A stretch of 63,496 bases of DNA, the filler included, from Licmophora abbreviata (taxonomy: Eukaryota), in assembly GCA_900291995.1 (NCBI GenBank). It is 12 parts of 12 records of this genome, joined end to end, with 100 filler letters (N's around TTAATTAATTAA, not from the genome) between each part and the next. Parts side by side here need not be neighbours in the genome. Positions count along the whole stretch, not along the records: positions 19,381 to 28,977 come from OLMU01000152.1; 11 more parts are not named here. The stretch is one strand, 5' to 3'. Below are positions 3,588-55,325 of this stretch, in pieces. The notes below the pieces were generated by a model, which saw only the letters and a list, made by a program, of their open reading frames with translations, had not been told where the DNA came from and ran no database searches. The position numbers and the translations under genes were made by a program. Positions within the stretch are counted from its first letter, which is position 1. Each line of letters begins with the position of its first letter.

Positions 3588-3687
3588 NNNNNNNNNNNNN
3601 NNNNNNNNNNNNNNNNNNNNNNNNNNNNNNNTTAATTAATTAANNNNNNNNNNNNNNNNNNNNNNNNNNNNNNNNNNNNNNNNNNNN
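3588..3687. other. Artificial scaffold linker (44 N + TTAATTAATTAA + 44 N). Same linker at 5964-6063, 10543-10642, 19281-19380, 28978-29077, 34942-35041, 41556-41655, 45664-45763, 51311-51410, 55068-55167 and 62146-62245
   Basis: Identical 100-nt spacer with a six-frame stop core, seen 11 times. Confidence 0.99.
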
Positions 3688-4064: not shown

Positions 4065-6741
4065 CTAATCGGAAACTGTAGCCGACAGCTTTGGGGAGAT
4101 CCAACCAGCTCTTACCATGAACTCGACGACATCACCCTTCTTTTTCGAGTCAATCTTAACCATCGCTCGTCGGTTCGAACCGGCGCCTTCATTGTCAAGC
4201 AACCCTTGCTTCAGCGATTCGTGAATGATCGCAGCCTTGACGTCCAGATACTGATTCGGGAGCAGGTGGAGCTTGCGACACAACACAGCTTCCTTGTTCG
4301 ACAACAGCTGGAAGCCAGGAGCGCCCGTGATATCGAAGCCGTCCTCGTCACCGCCAATCGCAGTTTGCGACGTCGCCACTCCGGCTCCAACTGGTGAAAC
4401 CTTGACGCTTTCAGCTACACGAGCGCTGTCGATATGCTCGACGGACGCTATCTTGCTCTCATTGTTGGCCGTGACTTCGCCACCCGAGAGATCGGCACTG
4501 ATTTTCATTGGCGAACCGTCACCACTCACGGCAGCATCGTGCATGTCGACGTCTAATCGACCACCGCTTCGACGAGCCGACCTGTCGTTCGACTTGTACT
4601 GTTTCCAAAGCGCAGAAGATTCCGTCTCCGTTGCTTCTACCGCATCTTGGTCGGCCCTTTCGATACTCCCCTGGTCCTTCTGAAGTTGAGCCAGCTTGAG
4701 ACGTTCTCGACGATTCTTGTCAAGCTCAAATCTTTCGGCTTCGTCGAGGGAGGTGATGCCCATTCGACGATACATCTGAAGCTTTGCTATTTCCTTTCGT
4801 AGTTTCTTTGCCTTCAAAATATCAGAAACAAACTGTTCGTGCTCTTCCGGCGTATGAAGACGCTCGAACAGCCTCAAGCGACGCACCAAGTCTCGCTCAT
4901 CCCGTGGCATCTTCAGATCTGCCTGTTGGTTCTCGCGATAATTCAAGAGATTGCGATTCAACAAGAAATTCTTGCGACGCTCGCGTTCGTCAAGCTTGGT
5001 ATTGTAGATCTCGATAATCTGAATCTTCAGCAGCCGATCTTGGGGGAGATCGCTGCTGGCGAACTCCATGTCCGCAAGAATTTCTTCCGCCGCGTTTTCC
5101 CACTCCAGATCCATATCGCCGCGTCGAGGCATGTACCCCGCAAGTTCTGAGCCAGCTAGGGCGGGAAGATCTTCCGGGCGAGGTGGAAGAACGGTTGGTC
5201 CGCCCGGTTTGTTTAGCCGCGTTTCTTTCCATTCCTGGTGTATCTGTTTGACCTCTTCCGCTGTGGACGCTTGGGTGATTGCCTTTACGAACGCCTGTTC
5301 CGCTCGTGCGCTTTGTTCGCGTCCTACGTCTTGACCCGCCTGGATGCCGGGGACAGGCGGCAGGTATGGCTCTGACCAGGCATTCGCATACCCAGGAAGC
5401 GACGTGGTGGGCACGACCTTTGCCTTCTTCCGATTGCGTCCACCACTCGAACTCAATGAGACTGAACTAGTACCGCGCAGCAAATTCCTCTCGGAGACAG
5501 GGCGCTTGTTGGCTAGAGACGCTTCCTCGGCTCCTTCGACAGTTGCATCTGCGGCCTCCATCGTCTCTTCGTCGTCTTCAGCAATTGTGTACGCAGGGAT
5601 AATATGTCCGTATCGCCCTAGAAAGTCGTCAATATAACGGTCCATACACCGCTTGGCAGTCTTTCCTACACTTCCAGGTCCACTGACTGACTCAGCAATC
5701 TCAGTCCAGTTGCCGAGACCGTGGGTCTTGATGGCCTCAAGCAAACGCAGATCTTCCTCTGCCGTCCAAACAGACTTCGGGTCGTTCTGAATGACTAGCA
5801 CACTTTCTGTATCGGTTTCAATATTGTCTTCATCGGTCGCAGCTTTGACTTCGGTCTTTTCTTCGTTCTGGCTGTCGACGTCCTTCGGGACAACGGTATC
5901 CGACTCTTGGCTCTTGCTCTCGCCCGGAGTTACGTCGTTCGAATTGTCGGCGGCGGAATACTTNNNNNNNNNNNNNNNNNNNNNNNNNNNNNNNNNNNNN
6001 NNNNNNNTTAATTAATTAANNNNNNNNNNNNNNNNNNNNNNNNNNNNNNNNNNNNNNNNNNNNAACGGTATCCGACTCTTGGCTCTTGCTCTCGCCCGGA
6101 GTTATGTCGTTCGAATTGTCGGCGGCGGAATACTTAGTATCTACCTTTCCCATCTCGGTATCCTCAGGCCCCGACCTGGAATCGACACTGCTCGGCGGCC
6201 TCGAGGGTACAACTCCTCGCGACGACGGGAACAAAGGATATCTGGTGCTGTCGGCCACGCGATAGCCGTGAGTGTCGTCGTGATTGGCGGCAGCGGCGGA
6301 AATTCCAGAGCCATGAATGGATCCATCTTGTCCAACGATAGCATCATGAGCCACTGCGGCAGCCTTGAGACGAGCAATGGCGGCGGAATGATCCGTGGAG
6401 GCGAAGCAATCCAGGCACAAGTCAAAGTCGGGACAGACGGCGCAGCGAATACGTGGTTCCATGGAAATGTTCGCATGACAGTAATCGCAGTGATACACGT
6501 CGCGCCTCTTATCACTCGTCAGAACCATTCGCGGCCCTTCTCCTTGGGGACTCTCCAAGAGAGCAGGAGCCGTGGACTGTTCCGGCTTGTCCGTGCTGCT
6601 CGTATTCGTAGCATCGGCGGCAGCGGCCGGCTCTTCCAAGCTTGTAGATGCAGCTGACGTTTGTGGACCTACTTCCGGCTGTGACGGCAATGGGGCATTG
6701 CCTCTAGCGCTACTCTTTCCTTTTCGGCGTTTCGTTGGCAT
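4065..6741 (-). CDS. ADA2: Transcriptional adaptor ADA2 (ZZ zinc finger, SANT, ADA2 box, SWIRM), split by gap 5964-6063
   Basis: CDYC…RIRCAVCPDFDLCLDCF (ZZ), WTAEEDLRLLEAIKTHGLGNW (SANT), GYMPRRGDMDLEWEN and a C-terminal SWIRM. Collapsing the 72-bp overlap around the gap gives one ORF. Confidence 0.93.
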
Positions 6742-10000: not shown

Positions 10001-11678
10001 AAAATGCAGGTTACTGCCGTTCTTACCTGGACGATGAGCCTACTCCGTCGCTTCAATTCTTTTTCATCTTCCCTCGTTCCTGTTTTCTTTAAGAGAGCTG
10101 AGAGAAGCCCTAGCACTTGTACTTACGAGGTTATGGCAAAAAGGAAAATGAGAAAATGCAGTCCTGCTCGAGCAAGCCACGCAACAGTTGACAAGAACTC
10201 ACTCGTTTTTCCAAGTCCCATGTCGTCACCCAATATCGCTCCTCTATGCTCGGTTATGCATTTATGAAGAAATCGTATTCCGTCTTGTTGGTAGTCTTTC
10301 AGGAATCTATTCATGGGTGCCGGGACTTCGTTTGTCCGCAAGTCTTCTTCGTCTTCGCCGTACTCTAGAACAAGGGGCTCCAGCGGTCGCAGCTCCTCCA
10401 GACTGTCGCCTCCCCTTTGGGGTTTCAAGCCATACTCGGGATCGTTTCCGCCATCACGGTCATCGTCTGATGATTCCACTTCGGCTACGTCCCCAAAAGA
10501 TGACTTTTGCTTATTCTTGCGATGCCGTGGCTTGATCGAATTNNNNNNNNNNNNNNNNNNNNNNNNNNNNNNNNNNNNNNNNNNNNTTAATTAATTAANN
10601 NNNNNNNNNNNNNNNNNNNNNNNNNNNNNNNNNNNNNNNNNNAATTGTCATTGCGTGCTGTCTTTGTCTTGTCGAGTGACAAGCGGGGAGTCCGCTTCCT
10701 TCGTTTCGACGACGGCAGAGCGCGCTTCCGCAGGTTGAGTTCTTCCTCGTCCGTATCAAACAAGCTATCATCATCGCCATCTTCGTCTCGTCTCGGGATT
10801 CGAGCAACGTGCTCAATACGGCCCAAATGGAGAGCTGGTGGGCTTCTCGAGACATAGTGTTCCTGGCGCTTCTGACTTGTCGCTGATCGCATACCATCGG
10901 ACCCATGCCCGTCGTTTTCTCCGGTCGCCGAGGTGGGAGAATCTTCCAGCGCTCGCTGAAGCGTCTCATTAACTCGTCGATGCTTCTCTTTCTTTCGAAC
11001 CAATCGCCTAGTGCACTTGACAAAATCGTCGTCGTCGTCGTCATGCTCGTCAGCGTCCAGTTGGTGTATCTCCTTCTTGGCGACACCAAACGATCGAGTC
11101 AACGGCGGAAGCTCATGCGCGACACCATCTTCTTGTAAATTGTCCATCATGCTAGTTTCCAAGGCAGCTTTCTTCTGTCGCTTCTGCTCGAGTCGCATCG
11201 CAATTGCTACAAAGTCGTCGTCGTCGTCGTTGTTCGCACACGCTTGGGCATGCGGTTTACGGGGCGACATGGACAAAGACACTGAAGATACAGAGGAAGC
11301 GGCGGGAGAGGGCTTCATAGAGACTCCCGCTCTGGGGGGCTTGAAAGTGCCAGGCGATTCTGGGATGCGCGGTCCCATGCTGTGCTGCTGTTGATGGATT
11401 GTATCTCTATTGCCCGGGCTACTAGGCGGCGGTCTCCGATTCTTTCTGCGTCGCTTGATCCATCTGCCTTCTTCATCGTCCCACACATTTTCTTCCACTT
11501 CCAATTTCCGCTGTGTAGGAGCTAATCCGGATAGTTCCTCGTCGTTGTTGCTACCATTCTGTCCTTGTCGCTGATTTCGCAGTTCCAGACTTCGCTTGTG
11601 TCGTTCTTCTTCTCTTCTTCGCCGTTGTTCTTCCTTGCGGCGTCGACGCAGAATTTCTAGATCACCAATCTCATCCAT
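7042..11678 (-). CDS. ERCC6L2: SNF2-family helicase, ERCC6L2/RAD26L (plant Switch2)-like, multi-exon, spans gap 10543-10642
   Basis: [52 protein letters not shown] and [11 protein letters not shown]…RQIYKVQL. Subfamily call rests on the C-terminal motif pattern. Confidence 0.85.
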
Positions 11679-19067: not shown

Positions 19068-19912
19068 CTGCGACCGAGATTGTGTCGAGAGAGAGATAGC
19101 GAAATACCGGACGCATCCTTGGGGAAGCCATTCATCTACTTTGTATCAAGTGTTCTCAACAATTGACCCAGCCACTGCTGTTACTAGAGTAATATTATCA
19201 GCATAAGTACCTTCAAAGTGTTTGAATGTCATGCGACCTACTCGAGTACGAAGTTTTCAATGATAAACATGCAGCTTCACNNNNNNNNNNNNNNNNNNNN
19301 NNNNNNNNNNNNNNNNNNNNNNNNTTAATTAATTAANNNNNNNNNNNNNNNNNNNNNNNNNNNNNNNNNNNNNNNNNNNNGAAAGCTTGAGTTGTCCACC
19401 CGTGCAAGGCTTACTAGATACGTCTAAAGTAGCGCTGCCTGGCCAGGAGAATGCGAGACACGTTGAGACCGAGTCGCCATGCTACGACCAAGACCGAGTT
19501 CGACACACCTATTGAAGTCGTATAGTATCTCTTCGAGGCTCTTTAGAGAGTCCTTGGCGTGAACTGCGAACAGATTAAATGTCTCCAGGAGAGATGGCTA
19601 CACCGAAACAAGCTTTCACCATTCCATTGTGATCCAAAGAGCTTAGGCAAACAAGAAATTTTGCTAGTAGAACGGGCGCGCCGTGCGTCTAACACCGCGG
19701 CACGAGAGAGACTGGCAGCAACTGTTCTTCTACGTGACCCTCCGTAGAATTCAGTACCACACTTTGCGCGCCAAACTTTAAAAGTGATGCAATCGCAAGA
19801 GGCGACACGGGCGCATGTGAACACTCTCGATCAACGTCGACCCTGCGAGCACGGCATAGATTCGACTGATCACCCTTGCCCATTCCTTTCTCGACACTTC
19901 TTTATTTAGCCA

Positions 19913-22283: not shown

Positions 22284-23834
22284 ATGAGCAACAAGGGGAT
22301 AGAAGAGGGCCAGGACGAATGTTTGCCAGTCCCTATGATAATCCAGAATAAAAGAAGTCGAGATGAGAGAGTGAAAGAGCGGAGGAAGCGAATGAGAAGC
22401 GTAATGGTACTTTCAAGATTGATGATGGCATGCTTTGCGTTGTTTCAAATTCTATGCTGGCACACCAACGTCGGTCGTGCCTTTGCTCCCCAGTCACGAC
22501 TTTGGAGGGCTTCACAACAGGGATTTTTCCAGGTCCCCAGGTCCTCTCGCTCCATTCGAACGTATTCTCGACTTTACATGGTCAACTTCGATTCCAATGA
22601 TGCCTTTGAGATCCTGAATCTCACCCCCTCCCCCAATCTGGACAAGAAGGAAATTAAGAGAGCCTACAAGAGAATGGCGCTGAAATTCCACCCCGATGTC
22701 GTTATAAACCAGCAGAGTTCTGTTGACGAAAAGAGGAAAGCCAATGATCGATTCGCCAAAATCAATTGGGCCTACGAGACGCTCATGGGAAAGCGACAGG
22801 ACGACTCGAGGACGAAATCAGGTGCGGCCTCATCTTCATCGTCGGCGGGAGGATACACTCCGCCTCATAGACGAACGGGGAGTGCATACACTTCCAGTGG
22901 AAAAACTGACTTTTCAACCGATTGGAGAGACTACATGCCCAAGTACGACGATCAGGAGTACGATGCCGGCGGTGACTCGTGGAGTTCAATATTTGGTGAT
23001 CTGCTTACGGGTGTGGCAGGCGCAGCGGCCGATGGTGGGGGTGGGGTGTTTCGCGACTTCGTTGAGTTCTTGGAAAGTAATGTGGATGGTTATTCGACGG
23101 GCGATGACGATAATGAGCTCCGAATATTGCTGCAGACAGGAACGCTGTCTGAGGTTGCCGAGGAAATGGACGATACCGATCTGGTGGTGCAACAGCTCAT
23201 CACGAAGATATCTGGTGTTGACGAAGCGGTAGAGATTGCAAAAGCGGATTTAAAGGTCGCAACGCGTTACAGTGAAAAGATGCAACTCGACGAAAAGGTT
23301 TCTGAATTGCAGGCACGCAAGAAGATCGTTGACGGATATCTGAAGAGGGCGCGCAAACGTCTTCTGAGCCTACAGTCTCGATACAAGGAGCTCATCGTTG
23401 CAGGCGCCAATGATACACGGGGCAGGGGCAGCCCCCACTCATCTTCTACAGAGTCAGAGCCACCAAGTGCTTCCTCCTCGCCGTATCAGTCAAGTTCGAC
23501 GAGCGATTCCACCGATGCAAACGGTGATTGGAAGCACCAAGGGTTTGGATCGAGTGGACGACGAGCCAGGGGCAGTTCGCGCCGCGCAAGGCGACCGTCA
23601 TCCTCATCTTACTCAAACCAGCGCGCATCGCCGTCGACGCCAAACTCTTGGCCTTCCTCGTCTGCCTCGACCAGATCGTCATCGTCGCCGGCAAGCAGCA
23701 GCCCAGTAGCGGCGGTACCCCCTCACCGACGTTCCCCTGCAGACGTTCGCAAAGAACAAGACGACAGGCGGAGACTTAGGGAGCTCAAGGTGGACGAGGA
23801 ATTCGACCAGCTCAAGGAGGATCTTGGCCTTTAG
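22284..23834 (+). CDS. Plastid J-domain protein, CDJ2/DJC73-like (paralogue 1)
   Basis: Signal peptide followed by GRA-FAP, J-domain (AYKRMALKFHPD…FAKINWAYETL), FVEFLE motif, coiled coil and C-terminal FDQLKEDLGL. Confidence 0.82.
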   Translation: MSNKGIEEGQDECLPVPMIIQNKRSRDERVKERRKRMRSVMVLSRLMMACFALFQILCWHTNVGRAFAPQSRLWRASQQGFFQVPRSSRSIRTYSRLYMVNFDSNDAFEILNLTPSPNLDKKEIKRAYKRMALKFHPDVVINQQSSVDEKRKANDRFAKINWAYETLMGKRQDDSRTKSGAASSSSSAGGYTPPHRRTGSAYTSSGKTDFSTDWRDYMPKYDDQEYDAGGDSWSSIFGDLLTGVAGAAADGGGGVFRDFVEFLESNVDGYSTGDDDNELRILLQTGTLSEVAEEMDDTDLVVQQLITKISGVDEAVEIAKADLKVATRYSEKMQLDEKVSELQARKKIVDGYLKRARKRLLSLQSRYKELIVAGANDTRGRGSPHSSSTESEPPSASSSPYQSSSTSDSTDANGDWKHQGFGSSGRRARGSSRRARRPSSSSYSNQRASPSTPNSWPSSSASTRSSSSPASSSPVAAVPPHRRSPADVRKEQDDRRRLRELKVDEEFDQLKEDLGL

Positions 23835-25289: not shown

Positions 25290-27686
25290 ATGAAGATTGC
25301 CCAGAACAACATTGATCCACGACAACGACTTAGACTCCAAAAGACAATGTTACTGAACTCAGCGGCCAACCCCCCAGACGCCAGACCCAGGCGACTCGAG
25401 TCGGTGAAGAGACGGCCGAAATACTGCATGACTCGGCTCCAGGTGTGCCTGGCGATAGCTCAAGTTCTGATCTGTTGGAATACCGAATTTGCCCGTGCAT
25501 TTGCTCCTCAGTCCCGTCTTAGGAATGCAGCCTGTATCTCCAAGGCTTCCAGAATTGAATCTCACAGGCGATCCCAGACTCGACTGTGCTATCTCGTCAA
25601 CTTCGATTCCAACGACGCTTTCGAGATTCTCAACCTCAGTCCTTCACCGGGTCTCGACAAGAATGCGATCAAGAGAGCCTACAAGAAAATCGCTCTGAAT
25701 TATCACCCCGATATTGTTGTTACACAAAAAAGTAGCCAAGATGAAAAGAAATGCGCCAACGATCGATTTGCCAAGATCAACTGGGCGTACGAGACGCTCA
25801 TGGGGAAGCGAAAAGACTTGGCTCCGTCGGCGCCATCGGCTGCCACGGCTCCGTCGAAAGCACGGAGCGAGCACACACAGCCCCATGGACGTGCGACACG
25901 TACTGATGCATCCAATGGTAGAAAATCGGATGATGTGATGGATCGAAACCTCCGGACACTGTTGGAGACTGGAACACTTGAAGAAGTCGGAACAGAAATG
26001 CGCGATACCAACCTGGTTTCACAGCAGCTGTCGAGAAAGCTCTCCGACATTGAAGACGAGCTGACCATGATTCAGATGGACTTGCGGGTTGCTCTACGGT
26101 ATTTTGAGATTAAGGTTATGCAGGAGAAGGCTGCCGAACTACAGGCCCGTCGGGGCGCGGTTGAGGTATCCCTGACGAGGTCTCGCAATCGCCTCCAACT
26201 CCTCCAATCGAGATATACGGAGCTGATCTCGGCACGGGCTGGGGAGCACGGAGACGCGTCACAGAAGTCGACTCCGGCGAGCGGGACAGAGTCAGCGGCA
26301 ACTAATAAAGACTGGGTTGATACGGATGGCGATTGGAAGCATCAAGGGTTTGGATCTAGCGGAAGAGGTGGCCGAGGCAATCCCGGTCGGTCAGCTCGCC
26401 CGTCCACTTCGGAACATTCAAATGCGGCACCGTCCTCAGGTGGACGATCTTCACCCTTCTACTACACTGCGGGGTCGAATGCTGACGCGTCAACTTTCGA
26501 CAACTCGAACGGTCGCGCTCAGTCCCAGTCTGAGACTAACAGCGGTGGCGCGACACGAACGGCGTCAGGTGGGCAATCAACCAATAGCGGGTCAACGCCT
26601 CCTAGCTCGGTGTACTCCAGTCAGCAAAAATCTGCACAGTCGTCGCCGAGCAGCCAAAGCGCGACCGCGTCTTCAGGTCAACGAATTTCCACGGATCCGA
26701 AAACGTTTTGGTCCAACCATCCGGGGACGACCACGGCAGCTTCGGCAAACCCGCAAGGAACAAAGGCTGAACCATCGAATTTTTCATACGTCTATGCACA
26801 GAAGTCGAATGGCAGACAGTCGCCGCCGCGATCAGCCCGTGACCCTTTGGATCCTTCGCAACGACCCGAGGCGAAGTCTTGGTCCCCCTACTCGACGGCA
26901 AAGAGGCCAACCCCTCGCACATCCGGCACCAAGATGCCCCCACCTGGAGCGTCCACTGCTACTGAAAAGTCTACGTTTTGGTCCAAGTATACAGCGGCAT
27001 CGGCGACACCACCCTCGCACATGTCGAGCGAGGGTTCGACAGTGTCCAGGGATCAGGCGTCTTCTTTTTGGTCGGGCTACACTACAGCATCGGAGACACC
27101 ACGCCACCCGTCTTCGCAAACGCCGAGTCCTATATCTGGAGACCCCCCTAGGAAAGCTTCCGCAGCAGCTGAGCGTTCAACGTTTTGGTCCGGCTACTCG
27201 CCAGCCTCCGAGAAAAGACCTTCATCACACGCGCCAAATCCGATCTCGGCAGACCCTCCGCGAAGAAGCTCTACTGATCCATCACCTCTTTGGGCAGCCT
27301 ACATGAAAGCGCCACCTCCACCCTCACCACGCGCAAGCGGTTCTCCACCTACACCTTCAGGACCTAATACACAGCACGTTCAGCCATCTTCTTTCTGGTC
27401 CAACACGAACAGGCCGAACTCAGTAGAAACCCGATCCCCTCCGTCGCCAGCCCCTTCTGTAGCCGCGCGACGAGGCTCGACTCGGCCTTCCACGCTTTGG
27501 TCTGCCTACGCGAACAGCCCAGGCTCGTCGGCACGTGACCAATTTTGGTACGCAACTGACGCCACAGGTACACACCAAGCGCTTGAGGACGGATATCAAA
27601 GATTTCGGGAATTGAAGGTAGACGCGTCAAGGTTTAGGAGCCAATGGACTGGCCAATGGAAAACCTTGGGTCTGCAATACGATTAG
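25290..27686 (+). CDS. Plastid J-domain protein, paralogue 2, with long S/P/T-rich tail of FWSxY-like repeats (likely signal-peptide start at 25428)
   Basis: ARA-FAPQSRL, VNFDSNDAFEILNL, YHPD, DWKHQGFGSSGR and RELKVD are shared with paralogue 1. Confidence 0.8.
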   Translation: MKIAQNNIDPRQRLRLQKTMLLNSAANPPDARPRRLESVKRRPKYCMTRLQVCLAIAQVLICWNTEFARAFAPQSRLRNAACISKASRIESHRRSQTRLCYLVNFDSNDAFEILNLSPSPGLDKNAIKRAYKKIALNYHPDIVVTQKSSQDEKKCANDRFAKINWAYETLMGKRKDLAPSAPSAATAPSKARSEHTQPHGRATRTDASNGRKSDDVMDRNLRTLLETGTLEEVGTEMRDTNLVSQQLSRKLSDIEDELTMIQMDLRVALRYFEIKVMQEKAAELQARRGAVEVSLTRSRNRLQLLQSRYTELISARAGEHGDASQKSTPASGTESAATNKDWVDTDGDWKHQGFGSSGRGGRGNPGRSARPSTSEHSNAAPSSGGRSSPFYYTAGSNADASTFDNSNGRAQSQSETNSGGATRTASGGQSTNSGSTPPSSVYSSQQKSAQSSPSSQSATASSGQRISTDPKTFWSNHPGTTTAASANPQGTKAEPSNFSYVYAQKSNGRQSPPRSARDPLDPSQRPEAKSWSPYSTAKRPTPRTSGTKMPPPGASTATEKSTFWSKYTAASATPPSHMSSEGSTVSRDQASSFWSGYTTASETPRHPSSQTPSPISGDPPRKASAAAERSTFWSGYSPASEKRPSSHAPNPISADPPRRSSTDPSPLWAAYMKAPPPPSPRASGSPPTPSGPNTQHVQPSSFWSNTNRPNSVETRSPPSPAPSVAARRGSTRPSTLWSAYANSPGSSARDQFWYATDATGTHQALEDGYQRFRELKVDASRFRSQWTGQWKTLGLQYD

Positions 27687-28478: not shown

Positions 28479-29077
28479 GCTCTCTAAAGCCAATTTGTTG
28501 AACCCACACTGTGCTGATAAAAGGAATCCGACGTAGTCTAGTGAGGAGAGGATTCGCTATAGGATCTGCGTTGCCGCGGCGTCGCTCGGCATCGGCTTTA
28601 TTGTGCGTGTTTGCGGCGTCTTTCGTCTGTTCGTCGCATGCGAACACTCCTCCCGATGAGATGTCATGGCGACGACCACACTCCATTCGATGCCATGCCG
28701 CTCGTCGCGCTGTGCGTTTCAGCACCATGCAAAGACCAACGGAATGTCATCGCTAATACTATACCGACCAGCAGTCGTTTGAGCAGAGTCTGGATGTGTA
28801 CAAGCCCGAAAAGCAGTATCAACAATCATCGGCAGAGGAAAACTTGCCACTTGTGCTAGTGGTCGGAAGTGCATGGCTTGGTCACCGCAGCATCATTTAT
28901 GCGGGGACCTCGTGGTGGAATTCGTCTGGCCCGAGGGCTTTCGCAGGACAAGGATGCGTCACTGTCTGTATTCGACGNNNNNNNNNNNNNNNNNNNNNNN
29001 NNNNNNNNNNNNNNNNNNNNNTTAATTAATTAANNNNNNNNNNNNNNNNNNNNNNNNNNNNNNNNNNNNNNNNNNNN

Positions 29078-29995
29078 ACGTTCCGACGCATGGGACCACA
29101 CCTTCCCTGGTCCATTTTTAACTGCTCCGCGTGTCGCCGTATAGTTCGCTGTACCTTTGCTCGAAGGCCACTGCGTACTCGAAACTTTGTGTCTTGAGAA
29201 AGTTGAAGCAGCTCGCCCGCTGTCCGATGTATGCGACCAGCTCGTTGACGGCCCATTGTTGACTGTGCGACTCGACGACTCCCTGGTAGCGCCGCCTTTT
29301 CTTGCGCTCCAGTGAGCTGACGCCGAGTGCCCAAAGCCGATATCCTGGGGGCAACGCACTGATGGTCCAGTATTCTTCCGCGCTCTCGGCCATTGTGAAG
29401 TTGGTCGGCAGTACGGCCAAGAGGACGATGGCTCGTTTGCTCCACCAGTTGACCACCATCCTTCTGATGTCTCTTCCTCGGATGGATCTGTAGTGAGAGT
29501 CTCGTAGGCCCAGTTGATTCTTGCAAACCGATCGTTTGCTAATCGTTTTTCCTCTTCGGAGCTGTGATTATCAAGCACGACATCAGGGTGAAACTTCATG
29601 GCCATTTTCTTGTAGGCGCTCTTGATGGCCTTCTTGTCGATTTGGCCGGGTGTTGGGCTAAGATTTAGGGTGTCGAGGGCATCGCTGACGTCGGGATTGA
29701 CGAGATAGTACAGTCGAGATGGCAATCGGATGGAGCGATATACACTGGGAAGTGAAGGAAGCTTTGTTCGGGGAGCATTCAATGGGCGTGGTTGGGGGCT
29801 AAAGGCGCGACCAACCTGACAGGAACAACAGAGAATGTGACAGAGCAGCACGAACGTCACTTGGAGCCGAATCATGGCATCGTTCGTGCGTTTTATACTT
29901 GATTCGAGTCTTTCCTCTCTTCGACAAACAAGGTTCCTAGCCATTTTGGGCGAATCATGCCCTGGTTGCCCCTGTCTCGGCGCGTTCTTCCTCAT
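29078..29995 (-). CDS. Plastid J-domain protein, paralogue 3 (3' end lost in gap; likely signal-peptide start at 29875)
   Basis: MIRLQVTFVLLCHILCC…VGRA-FSP and AYKKMAMKFHPD…NDRFARINWAYETL. Confidence 0.78.
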
Positions 29996-30471
29996 GGTCG
30001 GCACCGCATTGGAGGATTTGTAACGAATTGATCGATTGCCGATGGCAGTCAAGATCTCTCCGCTCGAGATCAGAATCACATACGTCATACTGCCAAATTG
30101 AATACAAAATAAATAATTGATATAAAGTTTCGAGCGTTTTGCCCTAAACAATCGTTTGAAATGATAGAACGACTCTTTATAAGCATCCTTAATCATGTAT
30201 AAGCTAATTATCGGCCGCGAGCGCGGCGTTCGTCAACAGCCCGATAGACGATCCCCCAATGAACATTACTCGTCGTTCAGGTAGCAAGACTATAAGATGA
30301 TACAGATACGATACGATTACTCATGCAAGAGGATACTTTTCAACCTAACCACGAGAAAGAGGAAAGCTTACTATCGATCGGCTTAAGATCATCCATCGCA
30401 CTCGTGTGCTACTCGTCGATGGAAGAAAGTAGGCAAACCATTGCACGCACAAAGATGTGTTGCTCTCAATC

Positions 30472-34918: not shown

Positions 34919-37900
34919 ATGGGAGTGCCCAAGGTATGTAANNNNNNNNNNNNNNNNNNNNNNNNNNNNNNNNNNNNNNNNNNNNTTAATTAATTAANNN
35001 NNNNNNNNNNNNNNNNNNNNNNNNNNNNNNNNNNNNNNNNNAGTGAACGCTATCCCAAGATTAATCAGGTGGTGACAGACTCGGCCCTATTGCCAGAGTT
35101 TGATCACCTCTACTTGGATATGAACGGCATCATTCATGGCTGCACTCATCCCAACCACATGGACATTTCAGATGTTTTGAGCGAGCGAGACATGATGCTC
35201 GGAATCATGCATTGTGAGTAGAGCAAGTTGCTTTCAATCGGAGTACGCGCTATTGACCTCACCTTCAAAATTTCTTTCTCTCTGCTATTAGATCTGGATC
35301 GCATCATTACGCAGATTGTGAAACCGAAAGTCTCCGTGTACATGGCCATTGACGGCGTCGCTCCACGCGCAAAGCTTAATCAACAGCGATCCCGTCGTTT
35401 CCGTAGTGCAAAGGATATGGCGGAAGCTACAAAAGACATGCCAAAATCTAACGCTGAGACTGGAGAGGAGTCTAAAGGTGATCTCTTCGATTCCAACTGT
35501 ATTACGCCTGGCACAGAGTTCTTGAAGCGGGTGTCAGACACTATCGAGTATTTCATTCGCAAGAAGATCAAGGAGGACCCGCTTTGGAGGGGTTTGAAAG
35601 TCATCTTTTCCGGTCACGATATTCCAGGCGAGGGAGAGCACAAAATTATGCAGCACATTCGTGAGATGAAGAATCAACCTGGATACCAGCCCAATACGCG
35701 CCATTGCATGTACGGCCAGGACGCAGACTTGATTATGCTCGGATTGGTTTCTCACGAACCACATTTTACGCTTCTGCGTGAGATTGTGGAATTTGGATTT
35801 GGAGGTAGCTCTGGGCAGAATGTACTCAAGACGGTAAAGAAATTTACGAAGGAGTCAGACTTTCAGTTGTTGCACTTGTCTGTATTAAGGGAGTATCTGC
35901 AGATCGAATTTTGCAAGGATGTCCTGGGTATTGATTTGGAACGAACTATCGACGACTTTGTGTTCATGACTTTTCTCGTCGGCAACGATTTCTTGCCGCA
36001 CATGCCGTCGTTAGACATTGGAGACGGCGCCTTCGACTTGCTTTTCAACACTTACAAGGAGCAACGATCGGGATGGGGAGAACGAAATTACCTCACAGAA
36101 CATGGCGAAATTAGCGACGCTAGTCGATTGGAAGCTTTCATTGCTGTTATTGGAGCTGCCGAGACGGAAATATTTGAAAAGAAAGAAGGGGACGAGGCGG
36201 CGTACGTGAAAAAGAAACGAAAGTGGGACAAACGAGACGGAAGAGCGGAGGGCCCCTCGGATCTCGACCTTGCTCAGATGGAAGCGGCAAAGCAAGGCGA
36301 TTACCTCTCCATGATTGAGGACATGATGGCAAAGCACACTTTAGATGACGGAAATTTTGTCGACGGTTGGACACCAGTCAGGACGCCCGGCCAAAAGGAT
36401 TTCAAAGGTCGATACTACTTCGAGAAGCTGAAATTAGCTCCCATAGACGTGGACGAGCACCTGCAATTGAGAAAGTCGTACATTGAAGGTCTGATGTGGT
36501 GTCTAGCTTACTACTACAAGGGGTGCATTTCCTGGGGATGGTTCTACCCATATCATTATGGTACGTCTAATGGCGCGGTGTGTCGTGCCTTGATTTTTCG
36601 TCTTTTTTAAAGTTAGCTAACGAGATGAGGTTGTGTCTATTGAACAAACAGGTCCGATGTTAAGTGACCTGACAAACCTGGAAAGTGTCTTTAGCGCTAT
36701 CGAATTCGACTTGGGCGAGCCGCTGCTGCCGTTTGAACAGCTTATGGGATGTCTTCCTCCGGCGTCGTCGGTGCTGGTACCACGTCCACACAGGAAGCTC
36801 ATGACCGACCCAGACTCTCCCATAATTCAGTTCTATCCGACCGACTTCGATGTCGACATGAATGGCAAAAGGTACGCCTTCGGAAATATTCACAGCGCGT
36901 CCTTTTGGTTACTCGCGACTCAATCTATGCTGTGCCTCTCTTAGAAATCCTTGGGAGGGAGTGAATCTCTTGCCGTTTATTGATGTTAAGCTCCTCAAGA
37001 AAACGATCGCAGACCTAATTCCTGATACAGTTCTGTCACAGGACGAGCAAAGTCGAAACAAGTTTGGTTCTGTACACTGTTACACATTTGACTTGACGGC
37101 AACCGAGACGGTTCCATCGGTCAACAGGAAAATCGGTTTGCCGGATATCACCAAGTGCAACTCTAGAGTGACCGTCGTCGACGCCCGAGATCGACATGAC
37201 ATCTGTTTCAAGTCTGAGCTTGTTCCGGGAACACAGATTCCTTACCCTGGATTTCCGTCTCTCAATGTTCTGCCGATCGCTTCGACCGAACTCGTCGGGC
37301 TCGGCCTCAACTGCTTTGGAAGCCCGTCCAAGTACCCGAATACGCTTCTGACGTTGCACCCGATGCCCCAGCTCCCGCCCGCTGCACAGATTGCCGACAA
37401 TATTTTGGGGAAGTCCCTCTACATCAACTGGCCAATGATGCACGAAGGCAGCGTAGTAGCTATCTCGGACTCCACGTGTGAGATTCGTCTCGTCAAGAAC
37501 AAGAAGAAGACGAAGAAATGGAACAAAGTCGAGGTGGACCGTTGGCAAGGCGAGTCACAGGCAATGATCCAGCAGTATCTAAGCGGCGCCGGATATCCAG
37601 GCTCCGGAGGAGTACAGATCGGTGATATTCAGATCCGACTGAAACTTGTACCTCTACAAGGTATGAAAACGAATCCCAATAATGGATCAACGAAGAAGGT
37701 GTTTGGTCAGGAGGAAGCCGATGTTCCGCTCCAAGTTTGTCTGTGGCAGGCTCCAGCACCAGATCCAAGGTTCGAGGAGAGGGGACCCATGACAGTGCAG
37801 GAAAGATTCCCATCTGACTGCAACGTTGTCCTGACAAAGGGCAAGTATCGAGGGTGTCGTGGGCGTGCCGTCGGCGCGGTCGACGAGAACAAGGTTGGAG

Positions 37901-39855
37901 TCAAAGTTGAAATACTTGATCCCGAACCACCATTTGGCCTCGCGATTGCGCGTTCCGTCCAAGAGTCATACATATCATCCACCGACGCGGCAAAACTGCT
38001 AAAGATATCCCCTCAGGTGTTTGGAAAGGTGACGGGGAGCTTGTTTGTAGAACCGGGGCGCTATGATCTCGGCCTAAATCTGAAGTACGGGGAAGGTTTG
38101 TGCGTTGTGGGCTACACTCGACGAAAGATGGATACGAACAAGGGCCTTTCGAACGGTCCGAAGGCCGCCCAGAAAGCCTGGGCAGCAGGAGATTCCCTTC
38201 TGGTCGTAGGAAGTGGGAGAGTCGGCTCGGACGACAACAATGGTGAAAGAGAAAAGATTCAATGGGAGTTCACGCCGAAAACAATTAAACTTGTTTCTCT
38301 CTATCGCCAAAAGTTTCCCCAGCTATTTGCGGCACTGTCGAAACAGCCAAATGAGCGCAAGTACAATGCAAAGCAGTTGTTTGGTTCGAAAGGCGAGCAA
38401 TGGCTACCGAAAGTTCGTGATTGGTTGAATAACGTTGAGACTGCGAAGCTCCCTCGCAGCCCTGCGTCGACTGATGCAATGACTGCTCAAGCCATTGCAG
38501 CTCTCGAACGAGCGGCTGACGTCAGAAATGCCGCTCGCGCAAAAGATGGTAGCACTAAAGAGTCACTGGTGAAGATTCCTGCGTCGGCTCTCTATCGTGA
38601 AGGATCGACAGGAGCTACTGATGTGCTACTTGCTTCTGACTTGAACGATAGCGATGCTCCTGAGCTCGGCGATCGGATCGTCAACTTGTGTGCGAATGGT
38701 ATCCCCTTCGGGCTTCGAGGTACAGTTGTTTCGATCCACGAGGCGACATCTGGCTGCGTCGAAGTCGTGATGGACGAAGAGTTCATTGGAGGGTCGTCCT
38801 TACAAGGATCTTGTTCAAACTTCCGAGGAAAGCTGTGCGTTTGGGCCCATCTTCTCAAGATCTCTCCATCGAACAGTGGTAGTCTCGTCGACCAGATCGT
38901 TCCAAAAGGATCCGGAAAGGCCTCTGTATCCAAAATCATTTCTGATATTGAAAAAGAAGAGCAAGCAGCAACAACAACCATTGCTGCTCCTGAACCAAAG
39001 GCCTCTACAATTCCAAACCCACCAAGATCATCTACACCGGGCCGAGCTTCAACCGGGCATGTCCCGGCCGGAAAGGGCGGGAGACAGGGAGCATGGAGAG
39101 AAGCGAAAGGCCCTGACGAAAAGGGAATTGGCTTCCGGAACTCACATAGAGGTGGAAAGAGCGGCTTGGCTGGTTGGAAGCAGATAACGTCGCCAAGCTC
39201 ACGCATGCAAACGAAGTCTTCCGACAAGACCGCAACGCCGAAGTCTCAAGATGCTGATGCGCCCCCTCCCAACGCAACTGCGGGTCTCAAAGCAATATTA
39301 GGGATTCAGGGACAGTCTGTCGCCTCCACTGCGCCAGTCGTTGCGCCAAATCAGCCGCCACCGCCGCCTCAACCTGCGTCAGCGGCAGACAAACTCTTTC
39401 AGATGATGGCGTCCAAGCATCAGAATGGCGGCGCTGCAATGCCAATGCCATTGCCGCACCCTCAGCCTTCTAGGTTCAGTTTTACGTACGTGGAAGAAGG
39501 ACAAACCGCCCCTCCTGTTGCATCGTTCCAGCAAGGTCCACCTCCGATGGGCATGGGTATGCCAATGTTTCCTCAGGGGATGGTTGCCCCTCATCCCGGT
39601 TTCGCCATGCCACATGGATCGTCGCTTCCACCTGTCGCAGTCGCCATGCCGATGATGTCAGGTGCTGTTCATCGAAACTCGCGACAAAGGGCGACTGCTC
39701 CCCCGACGGGGCCTTCCCCTGAAGAGTTTCCTCCTCTGGGCGGAGAGGCAACTGTGACAAAGCCAGAGGAGCCCGTTGCTCCCCCATCTGTGAAGGAGTC
39801 GAGACCGGCTGCACCCATCATTCCTTCTGTGGTAGTGTCCAAGGCGAGAAAGTAA
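34919..39855 (+). CDS. XRN1: 5'-3' exoribonuclease 1, multi-exon, gap after the first exon
   Basis: MGVPR…SERYP…FDHLYLDMNGIIH, AIDGVAPRAKLNQQRSRRF, GEGEHKI, LVGNDFLPH, YYKGCISWGWFYPYHY and XRN1-type C-terminal domains. Confidence 0.96.
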
Positions 39856-41086: not shown

Positions 41087-41655
41087 GGTCGTACGCACTA
41101 CAATAGATCCGATCGTCATACCGGTATGTATCAACATTGAACATCAATCGAGACGGCTGTTGACGAAGCGAGAGGACGGCATATCGACTCACTCGACTCA
41201 TTCACGTCGCCTTGCGCGCTCGCGCGGCGGTGTGAGGTGTGTGTGTGAAAATGTCAGACGATTGCTGCGACCGGCAGCGGCGGCGATGATGCGGTGCCGA
41301 CACACTCTATACTAATAGGTCACGGGGGAAAAAAGAAAACGACAGGGACAGTAGACCCCCCGATCGTGTAGACAACGAATGCCGGGCTAGGCCTTGCCCT
41401 CCGAAACTGTCGAAGGGGTTTATTGGAGGAGCTGAGTTGTATCAAATCGAGCAAGTCAGGAAAAGGGCCATGAAAATTGAAACGCGGCGCCGCCGACGCT
41501 ATCGGCGCGGAAACACTAAGAAGATGGTGCTGTTCGCGCAAGCACTTGTCTTTCTNNNNNNNNNNNNNNNNNNNNNNNNNNNNNNNNNNNNNNNNNNNNT
41601 TAATTAATTAANNNNNNNNNNNNNNNNNNNNNNNNNNNNNNNNNNNNNNNNNNNN

Positions 41656-45129: not shown

Positions 45130-46157
45130 CTATGTGACTTCTTGATACGTAGCGGCAGACGATACAGGAACGTACTTGTCCTGTCCTCGTTGTATTCTCC
45201 AGCATTCGGATATCCACTCCACAATGGCCAGTGCTAGCATCAACAGCGGCTTCAACACGAGTACGATCAAGGTCTGATGAGCACTGTCGACTCTTGATCG
45301 AAGCCATATTAGCAAAAAGACGATGAAGCGAACCGTTGGGAAGAGTGTTAGCTCCAGAAGTCGCCTTGACCTGTCGGCGAGGGCGTCTTTGGATGCACAC
45401 ATCGCCAACCAAATATAGATGATGAGAGGCCGCATGATTCGATGCGTGAGAGTTTGATACTTGCGCCGAAAGCGCTGTCCTTCCCAAGCGAGCGCTGATC
45501 GATACGTTGGCCCGAGAAGGCTATGGTCCTGAATAGGATCACCTACCCGAGGAGTCAGAAAGCAAAACTCACTGTCTCCGACAAATCCTGACTTGAGCGC
45601 CTGCGTAGCGCTCGGCACAACAAAGAGCAGTGGATCGTTCACGGCGTAGTAATTCACACACCGNNNNNNNNNNNNNNNNNNNNNNNNNNNNNNNNNNNNN
45701 NNNNNNNTTAATTAATTAANNNNNNNNNNNNNNNNNNNNNNNNNNNNNNNNNNNNNNNNNNNNCGAGAGACGTGACCAAGGCGCCCTGAGAATGTGCAAT
45801 ATGAATGACTCTTCCGCGTTTTCCCACGGCCGCTACTGCCTCCTTCAGATGCTTAACCAGTGAATCGACCTCTGCCGTAATGCGTCCGAGCTTCTGTGTC
45901 CCTGCTTGAGTGAGGTCGCCGAGATAACCCATGAGATCTTCGTCGTGAGACATTGACGTAGGATTATGACAGTACAAGACTGGCTTTCCTCCAAACAGGA
46001 CCGATATCTTGCCTCGGCCCTCTTCCATGTGCTCCACGCTATGTGCTATCCCATTGACCCAGGTCAGTCGGGTGTTTCGAACAGCGTCGACTGACAAGGA
46101 ACTTGTACATATCAGTCCCACGACCAGCAATCGGCTCCAGATCACTGACGCCCCCAT
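45130..46157 (-). CDS. Secreted or membrane alpha/beta-hydrolase-like protein (AHSQG), split by gap
   Basis: Signal peptide, WVNGI, CHNPT, IAHSQGAL, NYYAVNDPL and C-terminal hydrophobic segments. Confidence 0.6.
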
Positions 46158-54700: not shown

Positions 54701-55325
54701 GATCTTGTGTTTTCGTGGAACCTTTTGTGAGAGAGCAAAGGAAACAAGAAAGCAATCCGCGATGAAAAGAAAAATGTGCGGCTCTCGGCGCGCGTGACGT
54801 GGCAGGGACGAGTTGAATGTTCGCAGGACAGCATGACCGACCAGAGAAGCCCATCCCACTCGGAATTGAACGAGAGCGGCTCGAAGAATAAGGAAGAGTG
54901 CAGTTGCCAGCTTCCTTTCAAGTCACTTCATGCGAGGAAAACATCCGAAAGGAAGGGAGTACACGAACCCCAATACCCGAAAGGAAGGAGTATTCGAACC
55001 CCAATAGACGTAACTCTCTCTCTCTAGAGCTTATTCTGATTCAAAAGTCATGTATACGACGAGCGATNNNNNNNNNNNNNNNNNNNNNNNNNNNNNNNNN
55101 NNNNNNNNNNNTTAATTAATTAANNNNNNNNNNNNNNNNNNNNNNNNNNNNNNNNNNNNNNNNNNNNCAACGCAGCGCGCGCCCGAGATAAGCTCCGCGC
55201 GGCGATGCGATGTGTGTGCGTCGCCATGATGTTGTTGTGTCGCATGATGCATTGTATCATACTAGTACTGAATACCGTCGTATTCTATTGCTCTGGACGC
55301 CTGAGAGATCAGCTGACATTCATTC

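What the first reader, a model, noticed from the sequence alone, without database searches (positions are those of the whole stretch)
26400..27560. Disordered tail with periodic aromatic FWSxY stickers on a plastid J-protein: possible condensate or pyrenoid module
Seen: about 390 aa of S/P/T/A-rich sequence punctuated by KTFWSNH, KSWSPYS, STFWSKY, SSFWSGY, STFWSGY, PLWAAY, SSFWSN, TLWSAY and QFWY, roughly every 25-55 aa. Paralogue 1 lacks this, so it arose by internal duplication. Known: the pyrenoid linkers EPYC1 and diatom PYCO1 are disordered proteins with repeated W-containing Rubisco-binding motifs (PYCO1 uses KWSP). Inference: a sticker-spacer tail on an HSP70-recruiting domain could bring a chaperone to a plastid condensate or an oligomeric client. 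I know of no description of this architecture.
Basis: partly seen in the sequence, partly recalled or inferred. Interest (0 to 1): 0.72.

Follow-up and report, generated by a model that had tools for sequence, protein, structure and literature searches.

The report
Aromatic repeat tail on diatom J-protein
An uncultured marine diatom carries a diverged extra copy of a conserved chloroplast-type HSP70 helper protein whose long floppy tail holds nine evenly spaced tryptophan motifs, a likely multi-site docking array whose partner (Rubisco or anything else) is still unknown.

Summary
ORF 25290-27686 (+), 798 aa, has a Pfam J domain, a diatom-type presequence (ARA|FAP), a confident helical hairpin, and a tail with AF2 pLDDT <50 for nearly all of aa 321-763. 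That tail is basic (pI 10.2) and S/P/T/A-rich. It carries nine [ST][FLS]W[SA]x[Y] motifs, and six consecutive spacings are 30-39 aa. The motif pattern was reached in 0 of 20,000 shuffles.

The gene is a diverged tandem duplicate of a canonical diatom plastid J-protein at 22284-23834. It lost a ~75-aa module and gained the array. Repeat units are old (synonymous sites saturated), with pN below pS in 15 of 15 unit pairs, so the tail looks translated and constrained.

No homologue of the tail was found in four searches. None of the three PYCO1 motifs (KWSP, GTGYNP, EW[GA]SMN) is present.

The tail motif may derive from the family's conserved single PSTDWRDYMP motif, which another member carries amplified five times. 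This is a lead, not a result.

Best reading: a multivalent docking array that brings plastid HSP70 to a multi-site partner. The pyrenoid/Rubisco idea stays an untested analogy (about 0.12). No evidence on expression was obtained.

The parts
25290..27686 (+). Whole ORF, 798 codons plus stop: a diverged tandem paralogue of a diatom plastid J-protein (P0001)
   Evidence: ORF; 12 diatom-type J-protein hits, E 1e-45 to 5e-17; alignment A1, with family motifs in frame on both sides of the tail.
25428..25613 (+). Probable true start (M47) with the signal peptide (aa 47-70, ending ARA), then F71-A-P and an S/R-rich transit-peptide-like stretch up to the J domain
   Evidence: Read from the sequence. 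AF2 places a helix at aa 43-70. Paralogue 1 has GRA|FAP and the homologues have an aromatic residue at the equivalent place. That this is the ASAFAP-type diatom plastid signal is recalled knowledge and was not run through a predictor.
25614..25811 (+). J domain, aa 109-174, with HPD at aa 139-141
   Evidence: Pfam PF00226, E 3e-11, 43.7 bits against a cutoff of 27.8. H139, P140 and D141 are invariant in A1. pLDDT 81-94.
25923..26246 (+). Helical hairpin or coiled-coil domain, aa 212-319, conserved across the family
   Evidence: AF2 helices 212-227, 230-267 and 271-319, pLDDT 88-95. Aligned to all homologues.
26328..26378 (+). Family motif GDWKHQGFGSSGRGGRG (W349), retained
   Evidence: W349, F354 and G355 are invariant in A1. 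W contexts.
26250..26684 (+). Repeat-free first part of the predicted disordered tail, aa 321-465
   Evidence: pLDDT <50 except isolated residues, no secondary structure. Composition.
26685..27569 (+). Array of nine aromatic motifs, aa 466-760. W codons at 26709, 26880, 26979, 27069, 27186, 27291, 27396, 27498 and 27546. Basic S/P/T/A-rich spacers (pI 10.2, net +14).
   Evidence: DNA repeat families D1 and D2 centre on the motif. Unit comparisons: pN below pS in 15 of 15 pairs.
27576..27686 (+). C-terminal helix with the family's RELKVD...LGL ending, diverged (an insertion and 3 extra residues)
   Evidence: A1 alignment. AF2 helices 763-773 and 779-792, pLDDT 52-70.
22284..23834 (+). Paralogue 1: the canonical family member, 516 aa, same contig, 1.45 kb upstream, same strand. 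It has one PSTDWRDYMP-type motif (FSTDWRDYMP) and no array.
   Evidence: tblastn, 36.7% identity, E 8e-64.. AF2 model.
29078..29875 (-). Paralogue 3, on a different contig and cut off by the contig end. J domain followed directly by an S/T/G-rich tail with 8 W in about 130 aa (for example STSWSH, STQWPS, GKVWSH, SAHWSA), the last four about 24 aa apart.
   Evidence: Contig borders.

Best explanation
This is an intact, lineage-specific tandem duplicate of a conserved diatom plastid-targeted J-domain co-chaperone. The duplicate kept the HSP70-activating J domain, the helical hairpin and the WKxxGFGSSGRG motif. It lost the ~75-aa module that holds the family's single PSTDWRDYMP motif and a G/F-like stretch. 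Its disordered tail grew from about 100 to about 440 aa by serial duplication of a ~35-aa unit. Each unit carries one short aromatic motif, consensus [PS]-S-[ST]-[FL]-W-S-x-Y.

Proposed mechanism (inferred, not shown): the nine motifs act as a multivalent array of weak docking sites for a partner that offers many equivalent sites, such as an oligomer, a lattice, a membrane-bound assembly or a condensate. The J domain then triggers ATP hydrolysis in stromal HSP70 next to that partner, loading HSP70 onto it for assembly or disassembly. This would parallel how auxilin's motif array brings Hsc70 to clathrin, or how CDJ2 brings HSP70B to VIPP1 oligomers. The partner is unknown. The motif may be an amplified, de-charged variant of the family's own W motif.
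For: Shown here:
- J domain and HPD.
- Membership of the family, with conserved motifs in frame on both sides of the tail.
- The tail frame is open for 430 codons. Shuffles averaged 13.7 stops, and 0 of 5000 had none.
- Motif over-representation: 0 of 20,000 shuffles reach the observed counts.
- Regular spacing: 165 of 100,000 random placements.
- Motif residues are kept with synonymous codon variation: Ser as TCT/TCA/TCC/TCG, Phe as TTT/TTC, Tyr as TAC/TAT.
- Between repeat units pS is 0.53-0.94 (about saturated) and pN is 0.24-0.56, with pN below pS in 15 of 15 pairs. The best pair, 594/633, has 21 of 35 residues identical and pN/pS 0.32.
- AF2 pLDDT <50 for nearly all of aa 321-763.

Leads:
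- All 13 canonical-type members examined plus paralogue 1 carry the conserved xS[TV]DW[RK]D[YF][MI]P motif: one copy in each except P0014, which carries five in tandem, one reading STFW.
- In the paralogue 1 model that motif is a short helix (214-217) with pLDDT at or above 50 between flanks below 50.
- Other members amplify the second W motif: three copies in P0007, two in P0004.
- Paralogue 3 has a related [ST]xW[SP] array.

Precedent: CDJ2 delivers VIPP1 oligomers to HSP70B (passages of PMC10602608). The auxilin comparison is recalled knowledge.
Against: - No binding partner, localisation or expression was shown. No run on record as RNA held the stretch. The one run guessed to be RNA also covers intergenic DNA, so it says nothing about transcription.
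- The tail has no homologue anywhere searched, so conservation across species could not be tested.
- pN/pS was computed on protein-guided alignments of 19-35 codons, which biases pN downward.
- The link to the canonical motif rests on the S, T, W and Y positions only. The canonical motif's best-conserved acidic residues (D at -1, D216 at +2) and the basic +1 residue are not kept in the tail motif. Part of the S/T match is expected from composition.
- AF2 predicts no structure at the motifs.
- Plastid targeting is read from the sequence and was not predicted by a tool.
Confidence: 0.55

Rival explanations
1. One reading: the tail is a Rubisco-binding sticker-spacer module. It would place the J-protein, and through it HSP70, in the pyrenoid matrix, or would itself help condense Rubisco.
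For: - Plastid-type presequence.
- The tail meets the operational linker filters quoted in the literature: at least 3 repeats, largely disordered, pI above 8 (Ulva preprint passages), and spacing of 20-120 residues (PMC11570498 passages). Here there are 9 repeats, pLDDT <50, pI 10.2, and spacings of 30-57 aa for 7 of 8.
- PYCO1's Rubisco stickers are W-centred (KWSPRGGS, AAEWGSMNQ), and W-to-A abolishes binding (PMC10288592 passages).
- PYCO1 is likewise an orphan without homologues.
- A chaperone carrying a Rubisco-binding motif has a precedent: an RbcX-like protein in Ulva.
- No linker is known for centric diatoms (preprint 10.1101/2023.10.26.564148 passages).
Against: - None of the PYCO1 motifs occurs (0 hits each). 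The Chlamydomonas-type W[RK]xx[LIVA] pattern also has 0 hits; that pattern was typed from recall.
- No helical element is predicted at the motifs, unlike EPYC1, CsLinker, SUPA1 and the PYCO1 stickers.
- The base rate is low. Only 1 of 13 Chlorella candidates and 1 of 8 Ulva candidates that passed these filters was the linker.
- The words DnaJ, J-domain, chaperone and HSP70 do not occur in the main text of three diatom pyrenoid papers. Their supplements were not read and may list such proteins.
- A related W motif sits as a single copy in every family member, which points to a family-wide partner rather than to a lineage-specific linker.
Confidence: 0.12
2. The copy is a decaying or functionless duplicate. 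The tail would be a neutral low-complexity expansion, and the motif only a remnant of the duplicated unit.
For: - It lost a module conserved in all other members, and its C-terminus has diverged.
- The tail is an orphan.
- S/P/T-rich tails in this family vary freely in length and sequence.
Against: - There are no stops in 798 codons. The tail alone would be expected to hold about 13.7.
- HPD and the invariant J-domain residues are intact.
- Synonymous sites between units are saturated while the motif and part of the spacer (the PISxDPPR stretch) are kept. pN is below pS in 15 of 15 pairs.
- Regular spacing is maintained.
Confidence: 0.15
3. The protein is not stromal. It would be an ER-lumen, periplastidial or secreted J-protein, with the S/P/T-rich aromatic tail acting in the secretory pathway or at the cell surface.
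For: It has a classical signal peptide. S/P/T-rich repeat proteins are common among secreted diatom proteins; this is recalled knowledge.
Against: - F directly follows the predicted cleavage site (ARA|FAP), followed by a basic, hydroxylated stretch with only one acidic residue. This is the diatom plastid-import signature (recalled knowledge), and it is shared by paralogues 1 and 3 and by the homologues.
- J domains need an HSP70 in the same compartment.
Confidence: 0.08

Closest known systems
Unnamed conserved diatom plastid J-protein family (for example the Cylindrotheca closterium 'J domain-containing protein', P0007; window paralogue 22284-23834)
   Same: Presequence with an aromatic residue after the cleavage site; N-terminal J domain with YHPD[VI]V; P-H-x-R remnant of PPHRR; helical hairpin; DWKxxGFGSSGRG motif; S-rich tail; RELKVD...LGL ending. 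P0001 is 32-46% identical to the eight other sequences of alignment A1, 46% to window paralogue 1.
   Different: It lacks the STDWRDYMPKY...DAGGDSFGxIFSDLF...FRDFVEFLExNVDG module and the C-terminal VPPHRR. Its tail is about four times longer and carries nine FWSxY-type motifs that none of the 13 database homologues shows.
PYCO1, the Phaeodactylum tricornutum pyrenoid Rubisco linker (PMC10288592)
   Same: Plastid-targeted, disordered and repeat-built, with W- and Y-containing short motifs as candidate stickers. It is an orphan in sequence searches.
   Different: None of KWSP[RQ]GGS, GTGYNP or EW[GA]SMN is present. PYCO1 has no J domain. PYCO1's stickers are helical when bound, whereas no helix is predicted here. 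Rubisco binding and localisation are untested.
Auxilin/GAK (J-domain protein with a disordered array of clathrin/AP2-binding short motifs) - recalled knowledge, not retrieved here
   Same: A J domain tethered to a long disordered region that carries many copies of short, partly aromatic docking motifs. These motifs bind a polymeric assembly and so position HSP70 on it. This is a resemblance in mode of action only.
   Different: Different compartment and lineage. The J domain is C-terminal in auxilin. The motifs are unrelated, and there is no homology beyond the J domain.
CDJ2 of Chlamydomonas (chloroplast J-protein that hands VIPP1 oligomers to HSP70B)
   Same: A specialised plastid J-protein that targets an oligomeric client (PMC10602608 passages).
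   Different: No sequence comparison was possible. No repeat array is described in the passages read.

Membership tests
J-domain proteins (Pfam PF00226) | Profile match above the curated cutoff | tested here: met
   43.7 bits against 27.8, aa 109-174.
J-domain proteins (Pfam PF00226) | HPD tripeptide between helices II and III | tested here: met
   H139, P140 and D141 are invariant in A1. AF2 helices at 124-137 and 150-171.
Diatom plastid J-protein family (unnamed) | Signal peptide followed by an aromatic residue and a transit-peptide-like stretch | tested here: inconclusive
   ARA|FAPQSRL... read from the sequence. No targeting predictor was available.
Diatom plastid J-protein family (unnamed) | Helical hairpin after the J domain, and the DWKxxGFGSSGRG motif | tested here: met
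   A1 alignment with invariant columns L221...Y309, W349, F354 and G355. pLDDT 88-95.
Diatom plastid J-protein family (unnamed) | STDWRDYMP + DAGGDSFGxIFSDLF + FRDFVEFLExNVDG module between the J domain and the hairpin | tested here: not met
   Gapped in P0001 across about 75 alignment columns. The protein is therefore a diverged member.
Diatom plastid J-protein family (unnamed) | C-terminal VPPHRR and RxRELKVDEEFxKLKKELGL | tested here: inconclusive
   RELKVD and LGL are kept. VPPHRR is absent or unrecognisable, and there is an insertion plus 3 extra residues.
PYCO1-type Rubisco linker | Repeated KWSP[RQ]GGS small-subunit sticker | tested here: not met
   0 matches to KWSP. The nearest string is a single KSWSPY. 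Motif taken from PMC10288592.
PYCO1-type Rubisco linker | GTGYNP self-association motif and EW[GA]SMN large-subunit motif | tested here: not met
   0 matches each, including the loosened forms.
PYCO1-type Rubisco linker | Pyrenoid localisation; phase separation with form ID Rubisco | not testable with these tools
   Needs experiments.
Rubisco linker by operational (FLIPPer-type) criteria | At least 3 repeats, largely disordered, pI above 8, spacing 20-120 residues | tested here: met
   9 motifs; pLDDT <50 for nearly all of aa 321-763; pI 10.2; 7 of 8 spacings are 30-57 aa and one is 16. Criteria. The FLIPPer program itself was not run.
Rubisco linker by operational (FLIPPer-type) criteria | Repeating structured (helical) elements at the stickers | tested here: not met
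   DSSP on the AF2 model shows no helix between aa 320 and 762. This is a single model from a shallow 9-sequence alignment.
Rubisco linker by operational (FLIPPer-type) criteria | Abundance comparable to Rubisco; co-purification with Rubisco | not testable with these tools
   No expression data.

The most novel reading that the evidence does not exclude
The array is a true sticker-spacer module. It would partition a J-domain co-chaperone, and with it stromal HSP70, into a plastid condensate or lattice, most attractively the Rubisco matrix of the pyrenoid. There HSP70 would fluidise, dissolve or rebuild the assembly, for example at division. That would be the first chaperone-recruiting pyrenoid component in the red plastid lineage. 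It would also suggest that the single W motif in every member of this conserved diatom J-protein family is the general docking code.
Probability: 0.1. Interest if true: 0.8.

Novelty: new variant of a known kind. Interest (0 to 1): 0.5.

Why it matters
How HSP70 is directed to particular assemblies inside secondary plastids is almost unknown. So is how diatom pyrenoids are assembled and dissolved, and no linker is known for centric diatoms.

A J-protein with a built-in multivalent aromatic array would be a compact answer to both questions. Even if this orphan copy cannot be studied in its uncultured host, the work points to a tractable target. The canonical family is conserved across diatoms. 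It carries one or two W motifs that different lineages have amplified independently: five copies of the STDWRDY type in P0014, three of the WKxxGFG type in P0007, and nine of the FWSxY type here. Tagging or mutating the orthologue in a model diatom could identify the partner.

If the array proves neutral, the case still documents how fast the tails of this family evolve.

Tried and rejected
- Tail homologues: word-index search of aa 460-798, 0 hits among 8000 scored candidates. phmmer of the tail against 1.84 billion representatives, 0 hits at E up to 0.001. Back-translated peptide scan of JGI metagenome contigs, 60 pattern matches, 0 confirmed.
- Degenerate DNA pattern for three WSxY/FWSxY motifs at the observed spacing: 87 stretches. 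The in-frame arrays found in them looked like tandem DNA repeats, many open in several frames. I read three ORFs in full: one folded TPR protein (L054) and two short hydrophobic repeat ORFs. The highest S/P/T/A/G/Q fraction was 0.48, against 0.66 for the tail. None is a relative.
- Tandem Repeats Finder found no DNA-level array in the tail. The repeats are too diverged at the DNA level.
- Expression: no RNA holder was listed. Laying four runs gave only short contigs. The run guessed to be RNA also covers intergenic stretches, so it is uninformative.
- No whole genome is held for the window, so no proteome-wide motif census was possible. A six-frame scan of the window found the motif only in this ORF, plus STSWSH in paralogue 3.
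- I suspected that the alternative frame 29118-29459 (-) of paralogue 3 encoded the family's coiled coil. BLASTP gave E of 5 or worse and Pfam gave nothing, so I rejected that idea.
- Paralogue 3 does not continue into the neighbouring contig's end.
- ESM Atlas does not hold the window's proteins. The stored homologue P0007 gave only generic J-domain clusters at scores of 0.81 or lower.
- Earlier findings of this scan: nothing by place, by sequence or by words.
- The CDJ2 original paper is not held.
- No complex prediction was run.
Full report
**What the window is.** The 63,496-base window is not one stretch of chromosome. It is 12 contigs of 1.3-9.6 kb joined by N44-TTAATTAATTAA-N44 linkers. 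The finding lies on the contig at 19381-28977. Small pieces of the region, identical in sequence, turn up at low depth in several marine metagenome runs. The neighbouring genes are ordinary nuclear genes: an HhH-GPD glycosylase-like ORF and, on the next contig, a DcpS-type decapping enzyme. The protein's relatives are diatom proteins, including one named from Cylindrotheca closterium and one from a marine transcriptome project. The source is most likely an uncultured marine diatom. No whole genome is held for it.

25290-27686 (+) is one ORF of 798 codons.
- In aa 460-760, the pattern [FL]W[SA].[YHT] occurs 7 times against a shuffle mean of 0.014, and [FLS]W[SA] occurs 8 times against 0.66. Neither count was reached in 20,000 shuffles.
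- The spacing is more regular than random placement: a CV as low as observed occurred in 165 of 100,000 trials.
- The array region has pI 10.2 and net charge +14. It holds 25 aromatic and only 14 aliphatic residues in 295 aa.
- An AlphaFold2 model built on a 9-sequence alignment gives a confident J domain (pLDDT 81-94) and a helical hairpin at aa 212-319 (pLDDT 88-95). pLDDT is below 50 for nearly all of aa 321-763, with no secondary structure, and there is a weak C-terminal helix. I use this as a proxy for disorder; no dedicated disorder predictor was available.

**What the gene is.** Pfam finds a J domain at aa 109-174, and the HPD tripeptide is intact. A database search gave 12 relatives, E 1e-45 to 5e-17, all carrying only PF00226. 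Reading them and aligning them defines an unnamed diatom family with this order of parts:
1. A signal peptide followed by an aromatic residue.
2. The J domain.
3. A W/Y-x-PPHRR motif.
4. A PSTDWRDYMP motif.
5. DAGGDSFGxIFSDLF and FRDFVEFLExNVDG stretches.
6. A long helical hairpin.
7. An S-rich tail with EDAWKxxGFGSSGRG.
8. VPPHRR, and a terminal RxRELKVDEEFxKLKKELGL.

The window holds three members:
- A canonical 516-aa copy at 22284-23834 (+), on the same contig, 1.45 kb upstream of the finding.
- The finding itself.
- A third copy at 29078-30196 (-), on a different contig and cut off by the contig end.

The finding's probable start is M47. The signal peptide ends ARA|FAP and is followed by a basic, S-rich stretch. 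I recognise this, from recalled knowledge, as the ASAFAP-type plastid import signal of diatoms. It was not run through a predictor.

**How the finding differs from the family.** Alignment A1 shows that it kept the J domain, a P-H-x-R remnant, the hairpin, DWKHQGFGSSGRG and RELKVD...LGL. It lacks about 75 residues that contain the STDWRDYMP motif and the G/F-like stretches. Its tail is about 440 aa against about 100 in the canonical copy. None of the 13 database homologues has an FWSxY-type array.

**Is the tail real coding sequence under constraint?**
- The conserved family motifs lie in the same frame on both sides of it.
- The 430 tail codons contain no stop. Nucleotide shuffles average 13.7 stops, and 0 of 5000 have none. 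The other five frames have 3-18 stops.
- DNA repeat families are centred on the motif and reach only 61-86% identity over 21-44 nt.
- Tandem Repeats Finder sees no array there, so the duplications are old.
- Motif residues are kept with synonymous codon changes.
- In pairwise comparisons of six units, pS is 0.53-0.94 and pN is 0.24-0.56, with pN below pS in 15 of 15 pairs. The best pair (units 594 and 633) shares 21 of 35 residues, including a PISxDPPR stretch in the spacer, with pN/pS 0.32.

There are caveats. The alignments are short and protein-guided, which lowers pN. No data on expression were obtained: no RNA holder was listed, and the laid contigs are uninformative on transcription.

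**Is it conserved elsewhere?** No relative of the tail was found in any of four searches:
- A word-index search.
- phmmer against 1.84 billion representatives.
- A peptide-pattern scan of metagenome contigs.
- A degenerate DNA pattern for three motifs at the right spacing. It returned 87 stretches. The in-frame arrays in them looked like tandem DNA repeats, and the three ORFs I read were a TPR protein and two short hydrophobic repeat ORFs.

Two in-family observations bear on it.
- Paralogue 3 has a J domain followed directly by an S/T/G-rich tail with eight W in about 130 aa. Its contexts include SAHWSA, STSWSH, STQWPS and GKVWSH, the last four about 24 aa apart. A second gene in this organism thus carries a similar [ST]xW[SP] array.
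- Every canonical member has one conserved motif, xS[TV]DW[RK]D[YF][MI]P. Member P0014 has it five times in tandem (ESTHWREY, TSTFWKKD, ASTDWRHY, ESSYWRDY, VSFHWRDG).

The tail motif here (PSTLWSAY, RSTFWSGY, KSTFWSKY, PSPLWAAYM) shares the [P]-S-T-x-W-x-x-Y skeleton with that canonical motif, and five of the nine copies match [ST][STP].W..[YF]. The finding has lost the canonical copy from its usual place. In the model of paralogue 1, the canonical motif forms a short helix (214-217) with pLDDT at or above 50 between flanks below 50, which is typical of a docking motif.

I treat the derivation of the tail motif from the family motif as a lead, at about 40%. The canonical motif's most conserved acidic positions and its basic +1 residue are not kept in the tail motif. 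Part of the S/T match is also expected from composition alone. Other members independently amplify the second W motif (three copies in P0007, two in P0004). Changing the number of W motifs therefore seems to be a recurrent theme in this family.

**Mechanism.** What is shown:
- An intact J domain, which in all studied J-proteins stimulates the HSP70 ATPase (established knowledge).
- A long tail predicted to be disordered.
- A regularly spaced, selectively retained aromatic motif.

What is inferred: the array is a multivalent docking device that holds the J domain on a partner with many equivalent sites, so that plastid HSP70 is loaded onto that partner. The nearest functional parallels are auxilin, with its disordered motif array for clathrin (recalled knowledge), and CDJ2, which hands VIPP1 oligomers to HSP70B. 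I give this general reading 0.55.

**The pyrenoid reading.** In its favour:
- The tail passes the published operational filters for Rubisco linkers.
- PYCO1's stickers are W-centred and W-dependent.
- PYCO1 is also an orphan.
- A chaperone bearing a Rubisco-binding motif exists in Ulva.

Against it:
- None of PYCO1's three motifs occurs.
- No helical sticker is predicted.
- Only 1 of 13 candidates in Chlorella and 1 of 8 in Ulva that passed such filters was the linker.
- The main texts of three diatom pyrenoid studies do not mention DnaJ, chaperone or HSP70. I did not open their supplements, which may list such proteins.

I put this reading at about 0.12. It is not a member of the PYCO1 family. 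Whether it works like PYCO1 remains open.

**Other rivals.** A neutral, decaying duplicate (0.15) is disfavoured by the intact ORF, the intact HPD, and the pattern of saturated synonymous sites alongside a retained motif. A non-stromal location (0.08) is disfavoured by the F after the cleavage site and by the need for an HSP70 in the same compartment.

**Novelty and interest.** Full-text searches found no paper describing a J-domain protein with such an array in a plastid or pyrenoid context: J-domain + pyrenoid + Rubisco + HSP70 gave 2 unrelated papers, and diatom + plastid + J-domain protein + HSP70 gave 6 unrelated papers. I rate the finding a new variant of a known kind, namely a diverged member of a conserved but unstudied diatom J-protein family with a new multivalent tail. 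Interest is 0.5. The pattern is real and unusual, and it gives a testable handle on the canonical family in model diatoms. Everything beyond the anatomy is inference, and the host is uncultured.

Noticed in passing
window 3588-3687, 5964-6063, 10543-10642, 19281-19380, 28978-29077, 34942-35041, 41556-41655, 45664-45763, 51311-51410, 55068-55167, 62146-62245: Eleven N44-TTAATTAATTAA-N44 linkers: the window is 12 concatenated contigs. Adjacency across the linkers (for example between the finding and the J-gene at 29078-30196) carries no genomic meaning.
   Followed up: yes
window 29078-30196 (-): A third J-protein paralogue, cut off by its contig end. It has a presequence with GRA|FSP and a J domain, then at once an S/T/G-rich tail with 8 W in about 130 aa and no helical hairpin in the part that is held. 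The rest of the gene is missing.
   Followed up: partly
window 29118-29459 (-): A second open frame of 113 codons overlaps the tail of paralogue 3 and reads like globular protein. It has no similarity to the family (BLASTP E of 5 or worse) and no Pfam hit, so it is probably chance.
   Followed up: yes
P0014 (database homologue, 404 aa), aa 119-210: The family's STDWRDY motif is amplified five times in tandem at its usual place between PHRR and GGDS. This is an independent case of W-motif amplification in the family.
   Followed up: partly
P0007 aa 368-460; P0004 aa 473-556; P0013: The second family motif (xxWKxxGFGSSGRG plus a basic S/R stretch) is repeated three times in P0007 and twice in P0004. 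P0013 (850 aa) has several degenerate copies. The tails of this family evolve by repeat amplification.
   Followed up: no
family alignment A2; window 22284-23834: The motif PPHRR occurs twice in canonical members: after the J domain, and again about 30 aa before the C-terminus. It is nearly invariant, and I know of no function for it.
   Followed up: no
window 26317-27306 (+), frame +1 of the tail: A 329-codon, arginine-rich alternative ORF overlaps the tail. This is expected from reading S/P/A codons out of frame and is not evidence of a second gene.
   Followed up: no
window 36862-39855 (+): A 997-aa ORF on another contig has a P/A/S/G-rich C-terminal third. It gave a weak compositional tblastn match to the tail (22.5% identity, E 4e-7 with filters off) and is not a relative.
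   Followed up: no
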